IMG/VR virus record: IMGVR_UViG_3300014919_000025
Coordinates: 1-4,704 of that record
Strand: one strand, 5' to 3'
DNA: 4,704 nucleotides
DNA from: a virus
Lineage: Duplodnaviria; Heunggongvirae; Uroviricota; Caudoviricetes
Shown: in pieces, positions 25-4,537 of the stretch
Numbering within the stretch: position 1 is the stretch's first letter
Layout: each line of letters begins with the position of its first letter
Notes under the pieces: generated by a model
Seen by the model: the letters and a program-made list of their open reading frames with translations, nothing else
The model's database searches: none
What the model was told of the DNA's origin: nothing
Translations under genes and position numbers: made by a program

Positions 25-657
25 TCATATCAGGCGTAATACCACAACCCTTAAGTTAGCGCTTATGGGGTTTACCCCCTCATTCAAACGGGCTTTCCAG
101 GCTTTGAAGGCTGCAGATTTTGAATTGCCACCAGCACGTTTTGGATAGGCCAGCCATGCCTGCTCAAACTCCGGAGAGTATTCCGGTCGGTTTGAACGAA
201 CTCGCACAGACTCATCAGCAGATGCACCAACAGCTATTGGTTCATTGACTGGTTCTTTGACTGGTTCAAAAGAGTGACTGGTTCTGGGTGAATCTCCTGC
301 ACTACCCCCTGGTGCAACTCCTGCACTACCTGGTGAATTTGCTGCACCAGATAGTGAATTATTTGCACTACCCCCTAGTGAATCTCCTGCACCATCAAGA
401 TGAAGGAGATAGATATTACTTGAGTTACCTTTTTCACCTTTCCGGGTGACTTTTTTTACCAGCCCGGACTCACAAAGGGCCGCAATATGATTCATCACAG
501 AACGTTTGCTAATCTCGCACTGGTCAGCAATATGCTGGTAGCTGGGCCAGCACTCACCCTGATCGCTGGCATTATCAGCCAGCTTAATCAGAACCAGTTT
601 TCGCAATGGATTTCCCACTCGAATTTTCATCGCTTTAACCATCAACTCCATACTCAT
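25..657 (-). CDS. Putative replication-initiation protein (210 aa): N-terminal winged-HTH domain, Gly/Ser/Ala/Pro-rich repetitive linker, short basic C-terminal region
   Basis: ORF-track ORF. The N-terminal region (LVLIKLADNASDQGECWPSYQHIADQCEISKRSVMNHIAALCESGLV) has the pattern of HTH domains found in phage/plasmid replication initiators. The ATG at 657 overlaps the stop of the upstream 74-aa ORF (ATGA at 654-657). It occupies the position of an O-like gene in a cro-cII-O type operon. The product call is inference; the coding call is better supported. Confidence 0.6.
   Translation of the reverse strand: MSMELMVKAMKIRVGNPLRKLVLIKLADNASDQGECWPSYQHIADQCEISKRSVMNHIAALCESGLVKKVTRKGEKGNSSNIYLLHLDGAGDSLGGSANNSLSGAANSPGSAGVAPGGSAGDSPRTSHSFEPVKEPVNEPIAVGASADESVRVRSNRPEYSPEFEQAWLAYPKRAGGNSKSAAFKAWKARLNEGVNPISANLRVVVLRLI
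240..392. repeat. Intragenic short direct repeats (iteron-like) in the linker of the replication gene
   Basis: TGACTGGTTC occurs three times (246-255, 258-267, 275-284). GTGAATCTCCTGCAC occurs twice exactly (288-302, 378-392), with degenerate copies near 332-348 and 352-368. CTGCACTACC(CCCT) occurs at 297-310, 321-330 and 364-376. These encode the low-complexity linker GAGDS / GSAGDSP / EPVKEPVNEP. Confidence 0.6.
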
Positions 658-878
658 GCAGCACCTCCGAGATGCTTCATGTTTTTTCCGGAGCGAAAGG
701 CTATAAGCGGCATACTGACGCGGTAATTACGGCCCAGCGGTTCACAAATCACCTTCTGACATTCACGGTCAACCAGGCTAACACGTAGAACATGCCCTGC
801 AGGCGTGGTGTACCACTGACCCGGACGAGGACAACGGAAAGTATGATTGGTAAACCGTTTGAAAATATTCCGGATCAT
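654..878 (-). CDS. Hypothetical small protein (74 aa), translationally coupled between Rha copy A and the replication gene
   Basis: ORF-track ORF. Its ATG (878-876) overlaps the Rha copy-A stop as ATGA (875-878), and its stop overlaps the next ATG as ATGA (654-657). An AGGGGG Shine-Dalgarno-like motif lies 5 nt upstream of the ATG. No recognisable domain. Confidence 0.4.
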   Translation of the reverse strand: MIRNIFKRFTNHTFRCPRPGQWYTTPAGHVLRVSLVDRECQKVICEPLGRNYRVSMPLIAFRSGKNMKHLGGAA

Positions 879-1756
879 TTACGCCCCCTTACCTCTGAAG
901 GGTTCAGCGACAAATTTATGAGACTGGCCAGTAGCGCCGCGTCGTTGATGCGGTCATACAGACTTACAGCCAGCGGGGATTCGGCTTTTGCCAACATGGG
1001 ATAAAGCTGCTGCAGCCAGACCTTGTGGATTACCGACAGGTGGGAGTAAAGCACGCTGGCGTTATCTGCGGCATCGCTCAGCGTGGATGGCTTTGAAAGC
1101 AGTTTTTCCATCTGGTTAAAGGCATTGATGTATGCCTCTTTGAACCGGGCAGCACGTTTACCCGTGAAACCCATAGCAAGAAACGCAAAACCGTCTCGTG
1201 TGATTTGATAGCAAAGGAGCTTGCGTGTACCACCGTTCGGTTGATTTACCGAAATCGATGTCTCCGCAAAATTGCGGGCACAAAACTCAGGGGAACAATC
1301 CAGAGTGCGGATCTTTTTCAGCACATCGTCGTGACGCTTGGAGAAGAAGTTGGCAACAGCCAAAGAAGTGGTAACGGCCTGGCCGTTGTCAATGGTGATT
1401 TCAGGTTGAGTGAGGGCTGGGATCGTAGCCATGATGGCAGCCTCCGTTGACAGTGAAAAACTTCCACCACCGGAAACGCCAATTTCACTGGTGGTGAACT
1501 GGACGGGGTTGGCGTAACCGGCGTCAACGGAGACCGGCGCACCTTTCGGTGCCCCCGCCCAGCCCACCATAATCTGGATGTGAGCAAATGCGGACGATAA
1601 AAAAGACGCTGGCGCGTCATACATCGCCGTTGACAATTTCAGGACGCCAATCCCGGCACCCGCTTTATAAGGTGCCTGAACAGTGTAACGTCCCGGAATT
1701 GCAGAATCAATATGCTGGTGGCGATTGGTAAACAGTTTGAAAATATTCCGGATCAT
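875..1756 (-). CDS. Rha-family phage regulatory protein, copy A. The full ORF is 293 aa; the Rha domain is the C-terminal 185 aa (875-1432) and has its own SD+ATG
   Basis: Rha hallmarks are present: FFSKRHDDVLKKIRTL and YQITRDGFAFLAMGFTGKRAARFKEAYINAFNQMEK. An internal start ATG at 1432-1430 is preceded by GGAGG (1441-1445 on plus) with an 8-nt spacer. The ORF is also open upstream to an ATG at 1756 that overlaps the copy-B stop (ATGA 1753-1756). Which start is used cannot be decided from sequence alone. Confidence 0.6.
   Translation of the reverse strand: MIRNIFKLFTNRHQHIDSAIPGRYTVQAPYKAGAGIGVLKLSTAMYDAPASFLSSAFAHIQIMVGWAGAPKGAPVSVDAGYANPVQFTTSEIGVSGGGSFSLSTEAAIMATIPALTQPEITIDNGQAVTTSLAVANFFSKRHDDVLKKIRTLDCSPEFCARNFAETSISVNQPNGGTRKLLCYQITRDGFAFLAMGFTGKRAARFKEAYINAFNQMEKLLSKPSTLSDAADNASVLYSHLSVIHKVWLQQLYPMLAKAESPLAVSLYDRINDAALLASLINLSLNPSEVRGRK
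1599..1618 (-). terminator. Terminator-like hairpin plus U-run inside the leader of Rha copy A (possible attenuator)
   Basis: On the minus strand, GACGC-gcca-GCGTC (plus 1605-1618) is followed directly by UUUUUU (plus 1604-1599). The stem is only 5 bp and the element lies within an open reading frame, so confidence is low. Confidence 0.3.
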
Positions 1757-2898
1757 TTACGCCCCCTTACCTCTGAAGGATTCAGCGACAAATTTATGAG
1801 GCAGGCCAGCGCCGAAGCATCATTAATATAGTCATACAAGCTAACAGCCAGCGGAGATTCGGCTTTTGCCAACATAGGATAAAGCTGCTGCAGCCAGACC
1901 TGATGAATTGATGAAATGTAGGAATAGAGAACGCTGGCGTTATGTGCAACGTCGCTCAGTACAGAGGGATTTGAAAGCTGTTTCTCCATCTGGTTAAAGG
2001 CATTGATGTATGCCTCTTTGAACCGGGCAGCACGTTTCCCCGTGAAGCCCATGGCAAGAAACGCAAAACCGTCGCGGGTGATTTGGTAACAAGGGAGTTT
2101 GCGGCCTGTGCAATCGGTGTAATCACTGGGCTGAAAATTCAGCTCAGTGAATTCAACAGAGCACTCAAGCGTCTGGATTTTTTGAATAACGTTTTTGTGC
2201 TGCTTGCAGAAATATTCGGCAACGGCCAAAGAAGAGGTAACAGCCTTCCCATGGATAACATCAATTTTAGGGTGAGTTTGGGTAGGGGTGGTTGCCATAG
2301 TGACATCCTCATGTGCGAATTTTGAAAACTCACCACATGGGACGCCAATCACAGAGGTGGTGAGACGTACAGGGTTGGCGTAACCGGTCGCACATGACCC
2401 CGGCGCATCTTTCGATGCCCCTGCACGCCCCACCATAATTTGGATGTGAGGAAACGTGCGCAAAAAAACCGCTGAAGCGCGGTTATGCGCATGTGCGAAT
2501 TTCAGGACGCCAATCCCGGCACCCGCTTTATAAGGTGCCTGAACAGTGTAACGTCCCGGAATTGCAGAATCAATATGCTGGTGGTCCTTCACACTCAACA
2601 AAATCACGCCTGAATTTCCACAAAGGACTAAAGCACTCATGCGGGTAGTCTTTGCGAAGATAGATAACGCGCTGTGTTTCTGGCTCCCAACGAATAACAT
2701 GGACATAAAGCCCTCTTCCGTCACGAAACCAGCGGTTAAGTTCCTGCACAACTCGCCCCCCACAGTCAGGTAAAGTTCTCTGTGGTTACTTACAGCCAGG
2801 TGATTTGGTAATCTGCATTCATGCCGTAACAACAGGTGTTCAGCGACGCTGACCACCAGCTGTTGCGACAAACGGTTATTTGCCGTTAAACTATTCAT
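1753..2898 (-). CDS. Rha-family phage regulatory protein, copy B, as a composite 381-aa ORF: a Cys/His-containing N-terminal region of about 105 aa, a leader of about 95 aa, and a Rha domain (1753-2298, 181 aa) with its own SD+ATG
   Basis: Rha motifs are present: YFCKQHKNVIQKIQTL and the identical core YQITRDGFAFLAMGFTGKRAARFKEAYINAFNQMEK. The internal ATG at 2298-2296 is preceded by GAGGA (2306-2310 on plus) with a 7-nt spacer. The ATG at 2898 overlaps the stop of the upstream 185-aa gene (ATGA 2895-2898). There is no in-frame stop between 2898 and the Rha domain. Confidence 0.55.
   Translation of the reverse strand: MNSLTANNRLSQQLVVSVAEHLLLRHECRLPNHLAVSNHRELYLTVGGELCRNLTAGFVTEEGFMSMLFVGSQKHSALSIFAKTTRMSALVLCGNSGVILLSVKDHQHIDSAIPGRYTVQAPYKAGAGIGVLKFAHAHNRASAVFLRTFPHIQIMVGRAGASKDAPGSCATGYANPVRLTTSVIGVPCGEFSKFAHEDVTMATTPTQTHPKIDVIHGKAVTSSLAVAEYFCKQHKNVIQKIQTLECSVEFTELNFQPSDYTDCTGRKLPCYQITRDGFAFLAMGFTGKRAARFKEAYINAFNQMEKQLSNPSVLSDVAHNASVLYSYISSIHQVWLQQLYPMLAKAESPLAVSLYDYINDASALACLINLSLNPSEVRGRK
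2462..2484 (-). terminator. Terminator-like hairpin plus U-run inside the leader of Rha copy B (possible attenuator)
   Basis: On the minus strand, AACCGC-gcuuca-GCGGUU (plus 2467-2484) sits next to a run of seven U (plus 2468-2462). It is at the position equivalent to the copy-A element but with a different stem sequence. Confidence 0.3.
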
Positions 2899-3452
2899 GC
2901 GTTAGTTTCTCCACAACCAGAAGCAATCGACGCCACGACGCCCGGAGCTGCACACTCGCGGGCGTTACTCTTTTCTGGAGCGCAGAAGATTTTGTAGACC
3001 AGTGCTGCATGCTCCTGGAGCTTCGAAATTGAAAGATACAGTTCGTCGTTAATTGCTGTCTTCTCATGCGGTTCCACTACACCGTCTTCGATTGCTGAAC
3101 GAATCTGTCTGGAATAACTGCCGATCTGTTCAATGACTTCCAGCAGGCGCTGGTTTATATCGGCGTTCTCTACTGCCTCAATTTCAGGAAGCGATACGAA
3201 CACCCCACCAGCAGACTGTGCGACAGCATCCGCAATGTAGTGAGTGCCAGCCGCACGCTGTAAAACCATTGCCCATCCCAGCGGGAAAATCTGATCGCCA
3301 TCTGCACGAAGGCGGTTGAATAATGCGTTCTCTGTTACATCCAGCCACTCAGCAGCTTCAGCGTAACCCCCCGGCAACGCCGCGATAGTTTTTCTGACAG
3401 CTTTCACGTACCACTCAGGCTGTTTTTCCACTTTCCAGTGATGATTACCCAC
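2895..3452 (-). CDS. Hypothetical regulatory protein at the cII position of the operon (185 aa), possibly CII/YdaT-like
   Basis: ORF-track ORF with a GTG start at 3452, preceded by AGGAGG (revcomp of 3460-3465) with a 7-nt spacer. The start overlaps the cro-like stop by 8 nt. The functional call rests on position only and is a weak inference. Confidence 0.55.
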   Translation of the reverse strand: MGNHHWKVEKQPEWYVKAVRKTIAALPGGYAEAAEWLDVTENALFNRLRADGDQIFPLGWAMVLQRAAGTHYIADAVAQSAGGVFVSLPEIEAVENADINQRLLEVIEQIGSYSRQIRSAIEDGVVEPHEKTAINDELYLSISKLQEHAALVYKIFCAPEKSNARECAAPGVVASIASGCGETNA

Positions 3453-3705
3453 GGCTTACCTCCTGTTCCTGTGGTTTAAACCCATTCTGGTTTTGGCTAG
3501 ATTGAAAACGTGCCGGATAAAGAATCTGCATTTCGCTGATTTCACCCTTAAAAAAATTGGCCAGACGTTCTGCAAGATCGATAGATGGAATTTGTTCCAG
3601 CCTTTCAATACGACTCAGCGTCGCTGGATTGACCTGAACGCCAGCAGCAACATGCTGCAAAGTAAATCCGTGCGCCTTACGCACACTCCGTAATGGTGAT
3701 TGCAT
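3445..3705 (-). CDS. Cro-like XRE-family HTH transcriptional regulator (86 aa)
   Basis: Small HTH protein (GFTLQHVAAGVQVNPATLSRIERLEQIPSIDLAERLANFF) transcribed divergently from the repressor gene. GGAGGT lies immediately upstream of the ATG (revcomp of 3709-3714). It is the first gene of the minus-strand operon. Confidence 0.7.
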   Translation of the reverse strand: MQSPLRSVRKAHGFTLQHVAAGVQVNPATLSRIERLEQIPSIDLAERLANFFKGEISEMQILYPARFQSSQNQNGFKPQEQEVSRG

Positions 3706-3802: not shown

Positions 3803-4495
3803 ATGAACATAGGAAACCGAGTCAGACAACTTCGCCAGGCGAAGAACATGAAAATCGCCGATCTCGCTGAAGCAATAGGAGTGGATGCGGCGAATATCTC
3901 ACGCCTGGAAACAGGTAAGCAGAAACAATTCACTGAACAAGCCCTGAGTAATATTGCCAGGAGCTTAGGTGTTGATATCGCTGATCTCTTTACCTCAGAC
4001 GTCAAAAGTAATACTGTATGTAAAAACAGTATTGGTGAGGATGTTGCGCAGGTGAAGGATGTATTCCGTATTGAAATGCTGGATGTCAGTGCCAGTGCGG
4101 GAAATGGCCTTATCCAGGGCGGTGATGTCATTGATGTGATTCATGCCATTGAATACAGAACTGATAATGCTGTATCGATGTTTGGCGGACGGCCAGCCAA
4201 TCACATTAAAGTTATCAACGTTCGTGGGGACAGTATGTGTCCAACCATTGAGCCAGGAGATCTCATCTTCGTTGATATCAGTATCAATCAGTTTGATGGG
4301 GATGGTATATATGTATTTGGTTTTGATGATAAAATTTACGTCAAACGACTGCAAATGATACCTGATAAACTGCTGGTAATTTCTGATAATCAGATTTACC
4401 GCGAATGGGGAATTACCAGCGAAAACGAACATCGGTTTATGGTCTTTGGAAAGGTCTTAATCAGTCAGTCACAAACCCTTAAGCGACACAATTAA
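3803..4495 (+). CDS. cI-like prophage repressor (230 aa): N-terminal XRE-type HTH plus C-terminal LexA/S24-type autopeptidase domain
   Basis: The N-terminus NIGNRVRQLRQAKNMKIADLAEAIGVDAANISRLETGK is a canonical HTH. The C-terminal domain has the nucleophile in VRGDSM (Ser144) and the general base in YVKRL (Lys181), spaced 37 residues apart as in LexA. A candidate Ala-Gly cleavage site is SASA-GNG (Ala99-Gly100). Confidence 0.85.
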   Translation: MNIGNRVRQLRQAKNMKIADLAEAIGVDAANISRLETGKQKQFTEQALSNIARSLGVDIADLFTSDVKSNTVCKNSIGEDVAQVKDVFRIEMLDVSASAGNGLIQGGDVIDVIHAIEYRTDNAVSMFGGRPANHIKVINVRGDSMCPTIEPGDLIFVDISINQFDGDGIYVFGFDDKIYVKRLQMIPDKLLVISDNQIYREWGITSENEHRFMVFGKVLISQSQTLKRHN

Positions 4496-4515: not shown

Positions 4516-4537
4516 AGCCACCAGAAGGTGGCTTTTC
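4516..4537 (+). terminator. Rho-independent terminator downstream of the repressor gene
   Basis: AGCCACC-agaa-GGTGGCT is a perfect 7-bp stem with a 4-nt loop, followed by TTTT, starting 21 nt after the repressor stop. Confidence 0.55.

What the first reader, a model, noticed from the sequence alone, without database searches (positions are those of the whole stretch)
1433..1756. Leader of Rha copy A: open reading frame that also carries helices conserved by compensatory change relative to copy B
Between the copy-B stop and the SD/ATG of Rha copy A the minus strand carries four elements. (i) A hairpin GGCACC/GGTGCC (1655-1660 / 1671-1676) inside the 87-bp identical block. (ii) A hairpin GACGC/GCGTC (1605-1618) followed by six U. 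(iii) An enclosing helix CGGACGAT / ATCGCCG (1591-1598 / 1623-1629, one bulge). (iv) A hairpin GCACC-GAAA-GGTGC (1539-1552) with a GNRA-type tetraloop. Copy B has helices (ii) to (iv) at equivalent positions but with different sequences that preserve pairing. The differences are non-synonymous in the open frame (APKGAP versus ASKDAP; DAPAS versus NRASAV). That is what RNA-structure constraint would produce, not protein constraint. This could be an attenuator or other structured regulatory RNA controlling each Rha gene, or a dual-coded region.
Basis: partly seen in the sequence, partly recalled or inferred. Interest (0 to 1): 0.65.

Follow-up and report, generated by a model that had tools for sequence, protein, structure and literature searches.

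The report
P4-type immunity RNAs inside Rha genes
The "leader" of each Rha gene holds two already-known phage regulatory RNAs (IsrK/seqA-like and C4/CI-like) that silence the Rha gene by base pairing. They sit inside a reading frame kept free of stop codons, as in satellite phage P4, so this is a real but ordinary member of a known system, present here as two copies with different pairing specificities.

Summary
All four helices are at the stated coordinates, copy B has equivalents, and the in-phase frame is open. The feature is not new. Rfam places an isrK RNA (1599-1675; 2462-2538) and a C4 antisense RNA (1487-1574; 2353-2440) on the minus strand of each leader, all above the gathering scores. 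The variable C4 loop (b') matches a site in its own isrK (b1) and a site over its own Rha Shine-Dalgarno (b2). It does not match the other copy's sites. Across 32 distinct b' loops from other phages, b1 and b2 change with b'.

The open frame is Pfam PF10554 (Phage_ASH), which is the eta frame of satellite phage P4. P4 has the same isrK-C4 order, the same 138-nt spacing and a nested in-phase gene (kil). In 42 leaders forming 11 lineages the frame shows no codon periodicity. Yet 0 of 464 codon variants are stops, against 25 and 30 of 451 in the other frames. So the frame is translated through but not conserved as protein.

The most likely mechanism is P4-type immunity. An internal promoter makes the RNAs that silence Rha, and translation from upstream transcripts overrides them. 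The modest new points are the tandem pair with two specificities (13 of 5426 E. coli genomes) and a conserved helix around the terminator.

The parts
875..1756 (-). Long open frame A (293 aa): an eta-like Phage_ASH stretch fused in phase to Rha A. Its ATG (1756-1754) overlaps the TGA of frame B as ATGA.
   Evidence: PF10554 covers aa 24-119 (E 8.8e-21) and PF09669 covers aa 129-218.
1682..1710 (-). Promoter-like element of isrK-A: -35 TTGATT (1705-1710), 17-nt spacer, -10 TACACT (1682-1687). It lies inside the long frame.
   Evidence: A promoter-like site at this fixed position is found in 61/62 distinct leaders, against 2/62 control windows.
1599..1675 (-). IsrK/seqA-like RNA, copy A. It comprises hairpin (i) at 1655-1676, a second hairpin with a1 (AUUGGCGU, 1644-1651) in its loop, b1 (1627-1634), and terminator (ii) at 1605-1618 followed by U6.
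   Evidence: RF01394, 62.2 bits, gathering score 50.
1591..1629 (-). Helix (iii) enclosing the terminator: arms at 1623-1629 and 1591-1598. The 5' arm overlaps the 3' end of b1.
   Evidence: The flanks covary across lineages. The helix is not part of the Rfam isrK model.
1487..1574 (-). C4/CI-like antisense RNA, copy A. It comprises a 17-bp outer stem, hairpin (iv) at 1539-1552, the b' loop UCUCCGUUGACG (1522-1533) and a' ACGCCAA (1509-1515). The 5' AUG at 1570 is in phase with Rha.
   Evidence: RF01695, 81.4 bits, gathering score 45.
1433..1486 (-). Target region of copy A: a2 (1476-1483), then b2 GUCAACGGAG (1442-1451), which overlaps the Shine-Dalgarno GGAGG (1441-1445) of Rha A.
   Evidence: b'A x b2A -23.8 kcal/mol, 10-nt perfect match.
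875..1432 (-). Short Rha A (185 aa), the nested in-phase gene that starts directly after b2. It is the equivalent of P4 kil.
1753..2898 (-). Long open frame B (381 aa): an eta-like stretch with Phage_ASH fused in phase to Rha B. Its ATG (2898-2896) overlaps the TGA of the CII-like gene as ATGA.
   Evidence: PF10554 covers aa 117-211 (E 1.6e-14) and PF09669 covers aa 221-306.
2545..2573 (-). Promoter-like element of isrK-B: -35 at 2568-2573 and -10 at 2545-2550. The sequence is identical to copy A.
2462..2538 (-). IsrK/seqA-like RNA, copy B. b1 UCGCACAUG is at 2490-2498 and the terminator at 2467-2484. The arms of helix (iii) are at 2486-2491 and 2457-2462.
   Evidence: 62.3 bits.
2353..2440 (-). 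C4/CI-like antisense RNA, copy B. Hairpin (iv) is at 2405-2418 and the b' loop GGUCAUGUGCGA at 2388-2399.
   Evidence: 75.1 bits.
2299..2352 (-). Target region of copy B: a2 (2342-2349), then b2 UCGCACAUGA (2309-2318), which overlaps the Shine-Dalgarno GAGGA (2306-2310) of Rha B.
   Evidence: b'B x b2B -16.6 kcal/mol, 10-nt perfect match.
1753..2298 (-). Short Rha B (181 aa), the nested in-phase gene.

Best explanation
Each Rha gene is preceded by a P4/P1-type antisense-RNA immunity module that lies inside a translated-through reading frame.

Shown by sequence analysis:
- A promoter-like site lies directly upstream of an IsrK/seqA-like RNA that ends in an intrinsic terminator.
- About 25 nt downstream lies a C4/CI-like RNA.
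- Its conserved a' segment matches a1 (in isrK) and a2 (just 3' of C4).
- Its variable b' loop matches b1 (in isrK) and b2 (over the Rha Shine-Dalgarno) of its own copy only.
- The frame in phase with Rha is open through all of this. It is joined to the preceding gene by an ATGA overlap and avoids stop codons without conserving amino acids.

Inferred from P4 (eta/kil, CI, seqA/seqC), P1 c4 and Gifsy-1 IsrK:
- In the lysogen the internal promoter fires. Most transcripts stop at the isrK terminator, and read-through transcripts are processed to stable C4.
- C4 pairs with b2/a2 and b1/a1. This blocks initiation at the Rha start and favours premature termination, so Rha stays off.
- After induction, transcripts from the upstream early promoter are translated through the whole leader in the eta-like frame. 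The ribosomes prevent the terminator and the C4 structure and pairings from forming. Transcription then continues into Rha and the replication genes, and a long Ash-Rha form may be made.

The two tandem modules have different b'/b1/b2 sequences, so each C4 should control only its own Rha.
For: - Rfam: four full-length matches above the gathering scores, isrK at 62.2 and 62.3 bits and C4 at 81.4 and 75.1 bits. Intrinsic terminators sit at the isrK 3' ends.
- Specificity in the window: cognate b' duplexes are -16.6 to -23.8 kcal/mol, against -6.4 to -11.2 for cross pairs. Perfect 10-nt matches overlap each Shine-Dalgarno.
- Specificity elsewhere: among 32 distinct b' loops from IMG/VR, 91% have at least 7 nt of perfect complement at b2 and 66% at b1, against 2% and 0.7% for non-cognate pairs.
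- C4 structure: 99.9% of cells paired in 38 sequences, 14 pairs with changes on both sides, and 35-50% in the slid controls.
- Fold z-scores are -4.06 and -5.68.
- A promoter-like site is at a fixed position in 61/62 leaders, against 2/62 controls.
- The frame is PF10554 Phage_ASH in both copies and in P4 eta.
- P4 has isrK at 8615-8692 and C4 at 8420-8507 inside the 214-aa eta ORF. It has the same 138-nt spacing from the C4 AUG to the kil ATG and the identical 21 nt GGAGGCTGCCATCATGGCTAC.
- There is no codon periodicity in the leader, while the coding control shows it at 0.38/0.32/0.50.
- Stop codons: 0/464 codon variants in phase, against 25/451 and 30/451 in the other frames. The in-phase frame has 0 stops in all 11 lineages, against 1-8 in the other frames.
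- Four ATGA overlaps link the CII-like gene to the O-like gene, and the junction between the two copies is in phase.
[quoted passage not shown] IsrK/STnc1160 control of AnrP is shown experimentally in PMC4825925. IsrK and STnc1160 are highly transcribed in lysogens (PMC7067206).
Against: - There are no transcript or protein data for this prophage. The promoter, the processing of C4, the repression of Rha and the effect of translating through the leader all rest on analogy.
- In Gifsy-1, IsrK supplied in trans activates the downstream genes rather than repressing them, so the sign of IsrK's contribution here is uncertain.
- About half of all C4-bearing leaders, in other spacing classes, have stops in this frame. 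Translation through the leader is therefore a property of the P4/138-nt class and not of C4 modules in general.
- A DUF4222 gene lies out of frame inside long frame B. RefSeq annotators disagree on where Rha B starts.
- I could not read the primary P4 papers. Some details come from my own recollection, cross-checked against the P4 sequence: kil is 65 aa and eta 197-199 aa.
Confidence: 0.75

Rival explanations
1. The leader simply encodes a genuine N-terminal 'Ash' protein domain of a 293/381-aa Rha protein, as RefSeq and Pfam annotate it. The RNA matches and helices are incidental.
For: PF10554 matches at E 8.8e-21 and 1.6e-14. RefSeq annotates the long ORFs. The frame is open in all 49 loci of the 138-nt class and depleted of stops.
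Against: - Diversity shows no codon-position periodicity in the leader, while the adjacent coding part shows it.
- The changes are compensatory for RNA pairs and non-synonymous for the protein.
- The b1/b'/b2 segments covary as RNA-RNA partners.
- A conserved promoter and an intrinsic terminator lie inside the 'domain'.
- In other lineages the same RNA module has stops in this frame.
- In Gifsy-1 the nucleotide sequence of orf45 is conserved but its amino-acid sequence is not (PMC4825925).
Confidence: 0.05
2. The leader is purely non-coding: isrK and C4 RNAs in an untranslated 5' region. The open frame is an accident of conserved, G+C-rich RNA sequence.
For: There is no amino-acid-level constraint. 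Much of the frame lies over strongly conserved RNA sequence, which would preserve an ancestral absence of stops. Other C4 classes lack the frame.
Against: - None of 464 distinct codon variants is a stop in phase, against 5.5% and 6.7% in the other frames, and this includes the hypervariable segments and spacers.
- Eleven lineages with a median identity of 48% are all open.
- The frame extends 297-2271 nt upstream in unrelated contexts and repeatedly starts at ATGA or TAAATG overlaps.
- The junction between the two copies is in phase and supplies a start codon.
- P4 eta is reported to be translated, with nonsense mutations being polar.
Confidence: 0.12
3. The module works as in Gifsy-1 (isrK-orf45-anrP) or P1 (c4-icd-ant). 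A separate small upstream ORF is translated, and Rha is expressed by termination-reinitiation coupling, rather than through a P4 eta/kil-type nested frame.
For: The AUG at the 5' end of C4 (1570 and 2436) corresponds to the first AUG of orf45. Loci with a 134-nt spacing and an AUGA overlap exist in the collection.
Against: Here the frame from the C4 AUG has no stop before the Rha ATG and runs into Rha in phase at a spacing of 138 nt. There is therefore no separate orf45 or icd. The spacing and junction sequence are those of P4 eta/kil.
Confidence: 0.08

Closest known systems
Satellite phage P4 immunity region: PLE promoter, seqA, CI RNA (seqB), seqC, and the nested genes eta and kil (Forti et al. 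1999; Sabbattini et al. 1995; summarised in PMC10111431)
   Same: - The order isrK/seqA then C4/CI is the same, with both matches above the Rfam gathering scores.
- The spacing from the C4 AUG to the nested ATG is the same 138 nt, and the junction GGAGGCTGCCATCATGGCTAC is the same.
- The complement of b' occurs in seqA and directly before the Shine-Dalgarno.
- A long frame starts upstream of the internal promoter and carries PF10554.
- Helix (iii) is present.
   Different: - The nested gene here is a 181-185-aa Rha-family regulator rather than the 65-aa Kil.
- The host element is a lambdoid prophage, with the module lying between a CII-like gene and an O-like gene, not a satellite.
- The upstream promoter would be the early-right promoter rather than P4 PLL.
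- Two modules with different specificities lie in tandem.
Gifsy-1 isrK-orf45(STnc1160)-anrP locus of Salmonella (Hershko-Shalev et al. 2016, PMC4825925)
   Same: An IsrK RNA with its own promoter and a leaky terminator, a processed stable RNA downstream at the position of C4, a downstream antirepressor-like gene, and a reading frame that starts at the 5' AUG of C4.
   Different: In Gifsy-1, orf45 ends in an AUGA overlap with anrP (134-nt class). Here the frame fuses in phase with Rha and continues far upstream of the promoter. The published mechanism is activation by IsrK supplied in trans.
Phage P1/P7 immI: c4 antisense RNA, icd, ant1/ant2 (Citron and Schuster 1990; from my own knowledge)
   Same: A C4 RNA whose a' and b' segments pair with a1/b1 upstream and a2/b2 downstream. 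b2 covers a ribosome-binding site. Differences in specificity give heteroimmunity, as between the two window copies.
   Different: There is no separate icd ORF, because b2 covers the Rha start itself. The C4 module here is embedded in an open frame, whereas the P1-like classes in my sample are not.
Pfam PF10554 Phage_ASH / 'Rha-Ash' proteins of Stx and other lambdoid phages (PMC8951638)
   Same: The long frames here have exactly this Ash + Phage_pRha architecture.
   Different: The literature treats Ash as a protein domain of unknown function. Here it coincides base for base with the isrK and C4 RNA genes and shows no amino-acid-level constraint.

Membership tests
Rfam RF01695 C4 antisense RNA (clan CL00128) | Covariance-model score above the gathering threshold, with a full-length match | tested here: met
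   81.4 and 75.1 bits against a gathering score of 45, model positions 1-87/87.
Rfam RF01695 C4 antisense RNA (clan CL00128) | Outer stem plus two internal hairpins, supported by covariation | tested here: met
   99.9% of cells paired, 14 pairs with changes on both sides, 0/500 shuffles reach the covariation score, and slid controls give 35-50%.
Rfam RF01695 C4 antisense RNA (clan CL00128) | a' and b' segments complementary to a1/b1 upstream and a2/b2 downstream, with b2 at a ribosome-binding site | tested here: met
   for the window. for 32 distinct b' loops (cognate 91% and 66% against non-cognate 2% and 0.7%).
Rfam RF01695 C4 antisense RNA (clan CL00128) | Released from a longer precursor by processing (RNase P in P1 and P4) | not testable with these tools
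   Needs mapping of RNA ends. STnc1160 is reported as a processed species in Gifsy-1.
Rfam RF01394 isrK / P4 seqA region | Covariance-model score above the gathering threshold; two 5' hairpins and a Rho-independent terminator | tested here: met
   62.2 and 62.3 bits against a gathering score of 50, model positions 1-77/77. Terminators are called, and there are 20 distinct terminator arm sequences among homologs.
Rfam RF01394 isrK / P4 seqA region | Own promoter directly upstream | tested here: met
   By sequence only: TTGATT-17-TACACT ending 6 nt before model position 1. A promoter-like site at the same position is found in 61/62 leaders against 2/62 controls. Activity was not measured.
Rfam RF01394 isrK / P4 seqA region | Hfq binding | not testable with these tools
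   Biochemical property.
P4-type eta/kil nested-gene immunity architecture | A long ORF that begins upstream of the internal promoter and spans seqA, CI and seqC | tested here: met
   Frames 1756-875 and 2898-1753. The P4 ORF is 8812-8168.
P4-type eta/kil nested-gene immunity architecture | A shorter gene nested in phase that starts just after seqC/b2 | tested here: met
   Rha ATGs at 1432 and 2298 lie 138 nt after the C4 AUG, as for P4 kil.
P4-type eta/kil nested-gene immunity architecture | Translational coupling of the long ORF to the preceding gene | tested here: met
   By sequence only: ATGA overlaps at 2898-2895 and 1756-1753. Similar overlaps recur in other loci.
P4-type eta/kil nested-gene immunity architecture | The frame must stay open (nonsense mutations are polar) but its protein sequence is not the selected feature | tested here: met
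   0/464 against 25/451 and 30/451 stop variants; 11 lineages all open; no codon periodicity.
P4-type eta/kil nested-gene immunity architecture | Translation of the long ORF prevents immunity-dependent (Rho-dependent) termination | not testable with these tools
   Needs reporter and nonsense-mutant experiments. Reported for P4.
Pfam PF10554 Phage_ASH | HMM score above the curated cut-off | tested here: met
   74.8 and 54.7 bits against a cut-off of 26.
Gifsy-1 isrK-orf45-anrP type | A separate small ORF whose stop overlaps the start of the downstream gene (AUGA) | tested here: not met
   There is no stop between the C4 AUG and the Rha ATG, and the two are fused in phase.
P1 immI c4-icd-ant type | b2 covers the ribosome-binding site of a small icd gene that precedes and overlaps ant | tested here: not met
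   b2 overlaps the Shine-Dalgarno of Rha itself, and there is no intervening ORF.

The most novel reading that the evidence does not exclude
The Pfam 'Ash domain' found on many Rha/Bro-network proteins may not be a protein domain at all. It may be the translation of an IsrK-C4 immunity RNA cassette whose only coding constraint is the absence of stop codons. These cassettes may move as in-frame modules within chains of ATGA-coupled early genes. On that view, the tandem pair here gives one prophage two independently gated regulators. Because the same b' specificities occur in lambdoid prophages and in satellite-like elements (L004 and L009), C4 RNAs could also mediate cross-immunity or signalling between helper and satellite.
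Probability: 0.4. Interest if true: 0.5.

Novelty: new member of a known kind. Interest (0 to 1): 0.3.

Why it matters
This has practical value for annotation. RefSeq and Pfam label this stretch as protein (a Rha family protein with an Ash domain) and list no RNA gene. In fact it holds two regulatory RNAs, a promoter and a terminator.

It also extends the P4 eta/kil logic, in which immunity RNAs sit inside a frame that must be translated through, to lambdoid prophages of E. coli. Relatives include prophages of O104:H4 and Stx phages.

The stop-codon depletion without any amino-acid constraint gives a simple sequence signature for such regions. The two heterospecific modules form a natural experiment on antisense specificity. 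None of this overturns current understanding.

Tried and rejected
- I first assumed the open frame was a by-product of conserved RNA sequence. The stop-variant count and the lineage count made me drop that view.
- I considered the Gifsy-1 orf45 and P1 icd arrangements. The frame relationships do not fit.
- My start-codon calls for the 137-nt class were ambiguous. In L009 the C4-AUG frame continues for 1248 nt into an integrase-like gene while overlapping an 81-aa 'MATTP' ORF. I did not resolve this class.
- A MAFFT alignment of the isrK segment (A1) put the terminator arms out of register, so I did not count pairs on it. I used an alignment-free cognate versus permuted flank test instead (after a script error).
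- The primary P4 papers (PMC94026, PMC176756) are not held. I relied on the summary in PMC10111431 and checked the ORF sizes against the P4 sequence.
- I did not predict a structure for the Ash peptide, because a poor single-sequence model would not have been informative either way.
- Some 134-nt (Gifsy-type) loci dropped out of the table. I did not debug this, and they are covered.
Full report
**Context.** The window is the immunity and early-right region of a lambdoid E. coli prophage. It holds a cI-like repressor (3803-4495, +) and, on the minus strand, six ORFs:
- a cro-like gene (3445-3705);
- a CII-like gene (2895-3452, Pfam Phage_CP76);
- a long ORF at 1753-2898;
- a long ORF at 875-1756;
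- a 74-aa ORF (654-878);
- an O-like HTH_36/DnaD_N gene (25-657).

Near-identical DNA occurs in E. coli chromosomes. Most relatives, including O104:H4, carry one Rha module instead of two. RefSeq annotates the long ORFs as 'Rha family phage regulatory protein' and lists no RNA gene.

**The observation.** The two leaders share an identical 87-nt block (1635-1721 = 2498-2584) and diverge immediately after it. The frame in phase with Rha is open from 1756 to the Rha-A ATG at 1432, and from 2898 to the Rha-B ATG at 2298. As RNA, the leaders fold at -106.5 and -106.1 kcal/mol, with z = -4.06 and -5.68 against dinucleotide shuffles. The MFE structures contain hairpin (i), a second hairpin, helix (iii) around terminator (ii), and the C4 fold with hairpin (iv).

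**What it is.** Rfam gives four full-length matches above the gathering scores on the minus strand: isrK (RF01394) at 1599-1675 and 2462-2538, and C4 antisense RNA (RF01695) at 1487-1574 and 2353-2440.
- Element (i) is isrK hairpin 1.
- Element (ii) is the isrK terminator, also found by the terminator scan.
- Element (iv) is the first internal hairpin of C4.
- Helix (iii) is not part of either Rfam model.

**Specificity.**
- The conserved single-stranded a' segment of C4 (ACGCCAA) matches AUUGGCGU in the loop of isrK hairpin 2 (a1) and again just 3' of C4 (a2). This is identical in both copies.
- The variable C4 loop b' is UCUCCGUUGACG in A and GGUCAUGUGCGA in B.
- Each b' has a perfect 10-nt complement over the Shine-Dalgarno of its own Rha (b2) and an 8-9-nt complement in its own isrK (b1).
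- Cognate duplexes are -16.6 to -23.8 kcal/mol. Cross-copy duplexes are -6.4 to -11.2.
- The largest differences between the copies are therefore three co-varying partners of an RNA-RNA interaction, not only intramolecular helices.

**Homologs.**
- An exact-pattern scan of IMG/VR for the C4 core returned 120 loci. Of 110 distinct flanking sequences, 84 have a1 and a2 on either side of the core, and these carry 32 distinct b' loops.
- Cognate b' loops have at least 7 nt of perfect complement at b2 in 91% of cases and at b1 in 66%. Non-cognate combinations reach this in 2% and 0.7%.
- On 38 distinct C4 sequences the Rfam structure is 99.9% paired, and 14 pairs show changes on both sides. Hairpin (iv) has such changes at all five pairs. 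Sliding the partners by 1-3 columns drops pairing to 35-50%.
- The terminator stem has 20 different 5'-arm sequences.
- The flanks that form helix (iii) pair better with their own partner (-8.0 kcal/mol) than with permuted partners (-5.99 +/- 0.30), and 0 of 2000 permutations reach the cognate value. Helix (iii) is therefore conserved by covariation, and it is present in P4 too. Its 5' arm overlaps the 3' end of b1, so C4 binding at b1 and helix (iii) should compete. That last point is inference.
- A promoter-like -35/-10 pair lies at a fixed distance upstream of isrK hairpin 1 in 61 of 62 distinct leaders, with different hexamers in different lineages. A control window has one in 2 of 62. In the window it is TTGATT-17-TACACT.

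**The open frame.**
- Its translation matches Pfam PF10554 (Phage_ASH) over the full profile in both copies, followed by Phage_pRha.
- Sequence diversity in the leader shows no codon-position periodicity: isrK 0.207/0.237/0.210, spacer 0.437/0.457/0.440, a2-b2 0.264/0.302/0.261. The first 50 Rha codons show the usual pattern, 0.380/0.317/0.496. I find no evidence for amino-acid-level selection.
- The frame is nevertheless not open by accident. In 41 distinct leaders of the class with 138 nt between the C4 AUG and the downstream ATG, none of 464 distinct non-consensus codon variants is a stop in phase. The other two frames have 25/451 and 30/451.
- These leaders plus P4 fall into 11 clusters at 85% identity, with a median identity of 48% between representatives. 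All have zero in-phase stops and 1-8 stops in each other frame.
- The frame extends 297-2271 nt upstream in different gene contexts and often begins at an ATGA or TAAATG overlap with the preceding gene.
- In the window, four ATGA overlaps link the CII-like gene, frame B, frame A, the 74-aa ORF and the O-like gene. The junction between the two copies (near 1722) is in phase and lends frame A the ATG and first 11 codons of the 74-aa ORF.

**The precedent.**
- Phage P4 (NC_001609) has isrK at 8615-8692 and C4 at 8420-8507, which are seqA and CI RNA.
- Both lie inside a 214-aa ORF (8168-8812) that carries PF10554. The neighbouring epsilon gene matches a different family, PF25738.
- That ORF runs in phase through '...EAAIMATT...' into a 65-aa nested gene. 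Its ATG is 138 nt after the C4 AUG, and its upstream 21 nt (GGAGGCTGCCATCATGGCTAC) are identical to window copy A. The complement of b' occurs in seqA and directly before the Shine-Dalgarno.
- These ORFs are eta and kil. According to PMC10111431, citing Forti et al. 1999 and Sabbattini et al. 1995, the constitutive promoter is internal to eta and its transcripts are terminated early through the CI and seqA interactions. Processing yields CI, and Kil is translated only on read-through. Full-length Eta is made only from an upstream promoter, is translationally coupled to the preceding gene, and its translation prevents termination.
- The related Gifsy-1 locus (PMC4825925) shows experimentally that isrK has its own promoter and a leaky terminator. 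A processed RNA (STnc1160) lies where C4 is, and a frame starting at the C4 AUG (orf45) is translated and needed for expression of the antirepressor-like AnrP. The orf45 nucleotide sequence is conserved but its amino-acid sequence is not.
- Both RNAs are highly transcribed in lysogens.

**Mechanism proposed for the window.**
- Shown: the anatomy, the complementarities, the covariation and the stop avoidance.
- Inferred by homology, in the lysogen: the internal promoters make IsrK-like RNAs and, by read-through and processing, C4-A and C4-B. Each C4 pairs with its own b2/a2 and b1/a1, blocks the Rha start and favours termination.
- Inferred by homology, after induction: early-right transcripts are translated through the leaders in the eta-like frame. 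This overrides the terminator and the C4 interactions, so that Rha and the downstream replication genes are expressed.
- The sign of IsrK's own contribution is uncertain, because in Gifsy-1 IsrK supplied in trans activates.

**What differs from the known cases.**
- The nested gene is a Rha-family regulator rather than Kil.
- The host element is a lambdoid prophage.
- Two modules of different specificity lie in tandem. The junction is found in 13 of 5426 complete E. coli genomes, for example strain S88.
- Module A also occurs alone elsewhere (for example L051). The tandem therefore probably arose by recombination between phages that carried different modules, not by recent duplication. This is inference.
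- Not every C4 module has the through-frame. Other spacing classes have stops or a separate small ORF.

**Verdict.** It describes a known regulatory system, so I class it as a new member of a known kind. The useful by-products are:
- an annotation correction: the 'Ash domain' coincides with the RNA genes;
- a quantitative signature of a stretch that is translated through but not conserved as protein;
- a conserved helix around the isrK terminator that is not in the Rfam model;
- a natural tandem pair of modules with different specificities.

Noticed in passing
window 288-392: Three direct repeats of about 39 nt (GTGAATCTCCTGCACTACCCCCT...) lie inside the O-like HTH_36/DnaD_N gene. They look like origin iterons within the initiator gene, as in lambda O.
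   Followed up: no
window 2570-2749 (-): A DUF4222 gene (E 9.4e-14) lies out of frame inside long frame B. RefSeq annotates Rha B as 295 aa plus DUF4222 in one genome, and as a single 381-aa protein without DUF4222 in O104:H4.
   Followed up: partly
L123 (phage P4) 7888-8812: Pfam PF10554 'Ash' matches the eta ORF that overlaps seqA and CI. It does not match epsilon, which matches PF25738. A survey of P4-like satellites used PF10554 as its epsilon marker (PMC8628076).
   Followed up: partly
L004 and L009: The same b' loop (TTTCCGTATGCG) and matching b2 occur in a lambdoid Rha module (L004) and in a satellite-like locus where the C4 frame runs into an integrase-like gene (L009). RNA-mediated cross-talk between element types is conceivable.
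   Followed up: partly
L048 4113 and 7372: A second example of one contig carrying two C4 modules with different b' loops, here 3.2 kb apart rather than adjacent.
   Followed up: no
window 1433-1486 and 2299-2352 (-): In the MFE folds of both leaders, the a2 region pairs with the b2/Shine-Dalgarno region in a local hairpin. The Rha ribosome-binding site may therefore be partly occluded even without C4.
   Followed up: no
window 4516-4533: A symmetric G+C-rich hairpin with T runs on both strands lies just after the cI-like gene. It looks like a bidirectional terminator.
   Followed up: no
L009 8782-10227 (-) and other loci with 137-nt spacing: In the 137-nt spacing class the C4-AUG frame is out of phase with the 'MATTP' ORF. 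It nevertheless stays open for 500-1248 nt, overlapping that ORF and merging with the next gene. I did not resolve whether this is also selected.
   Followed up: partly
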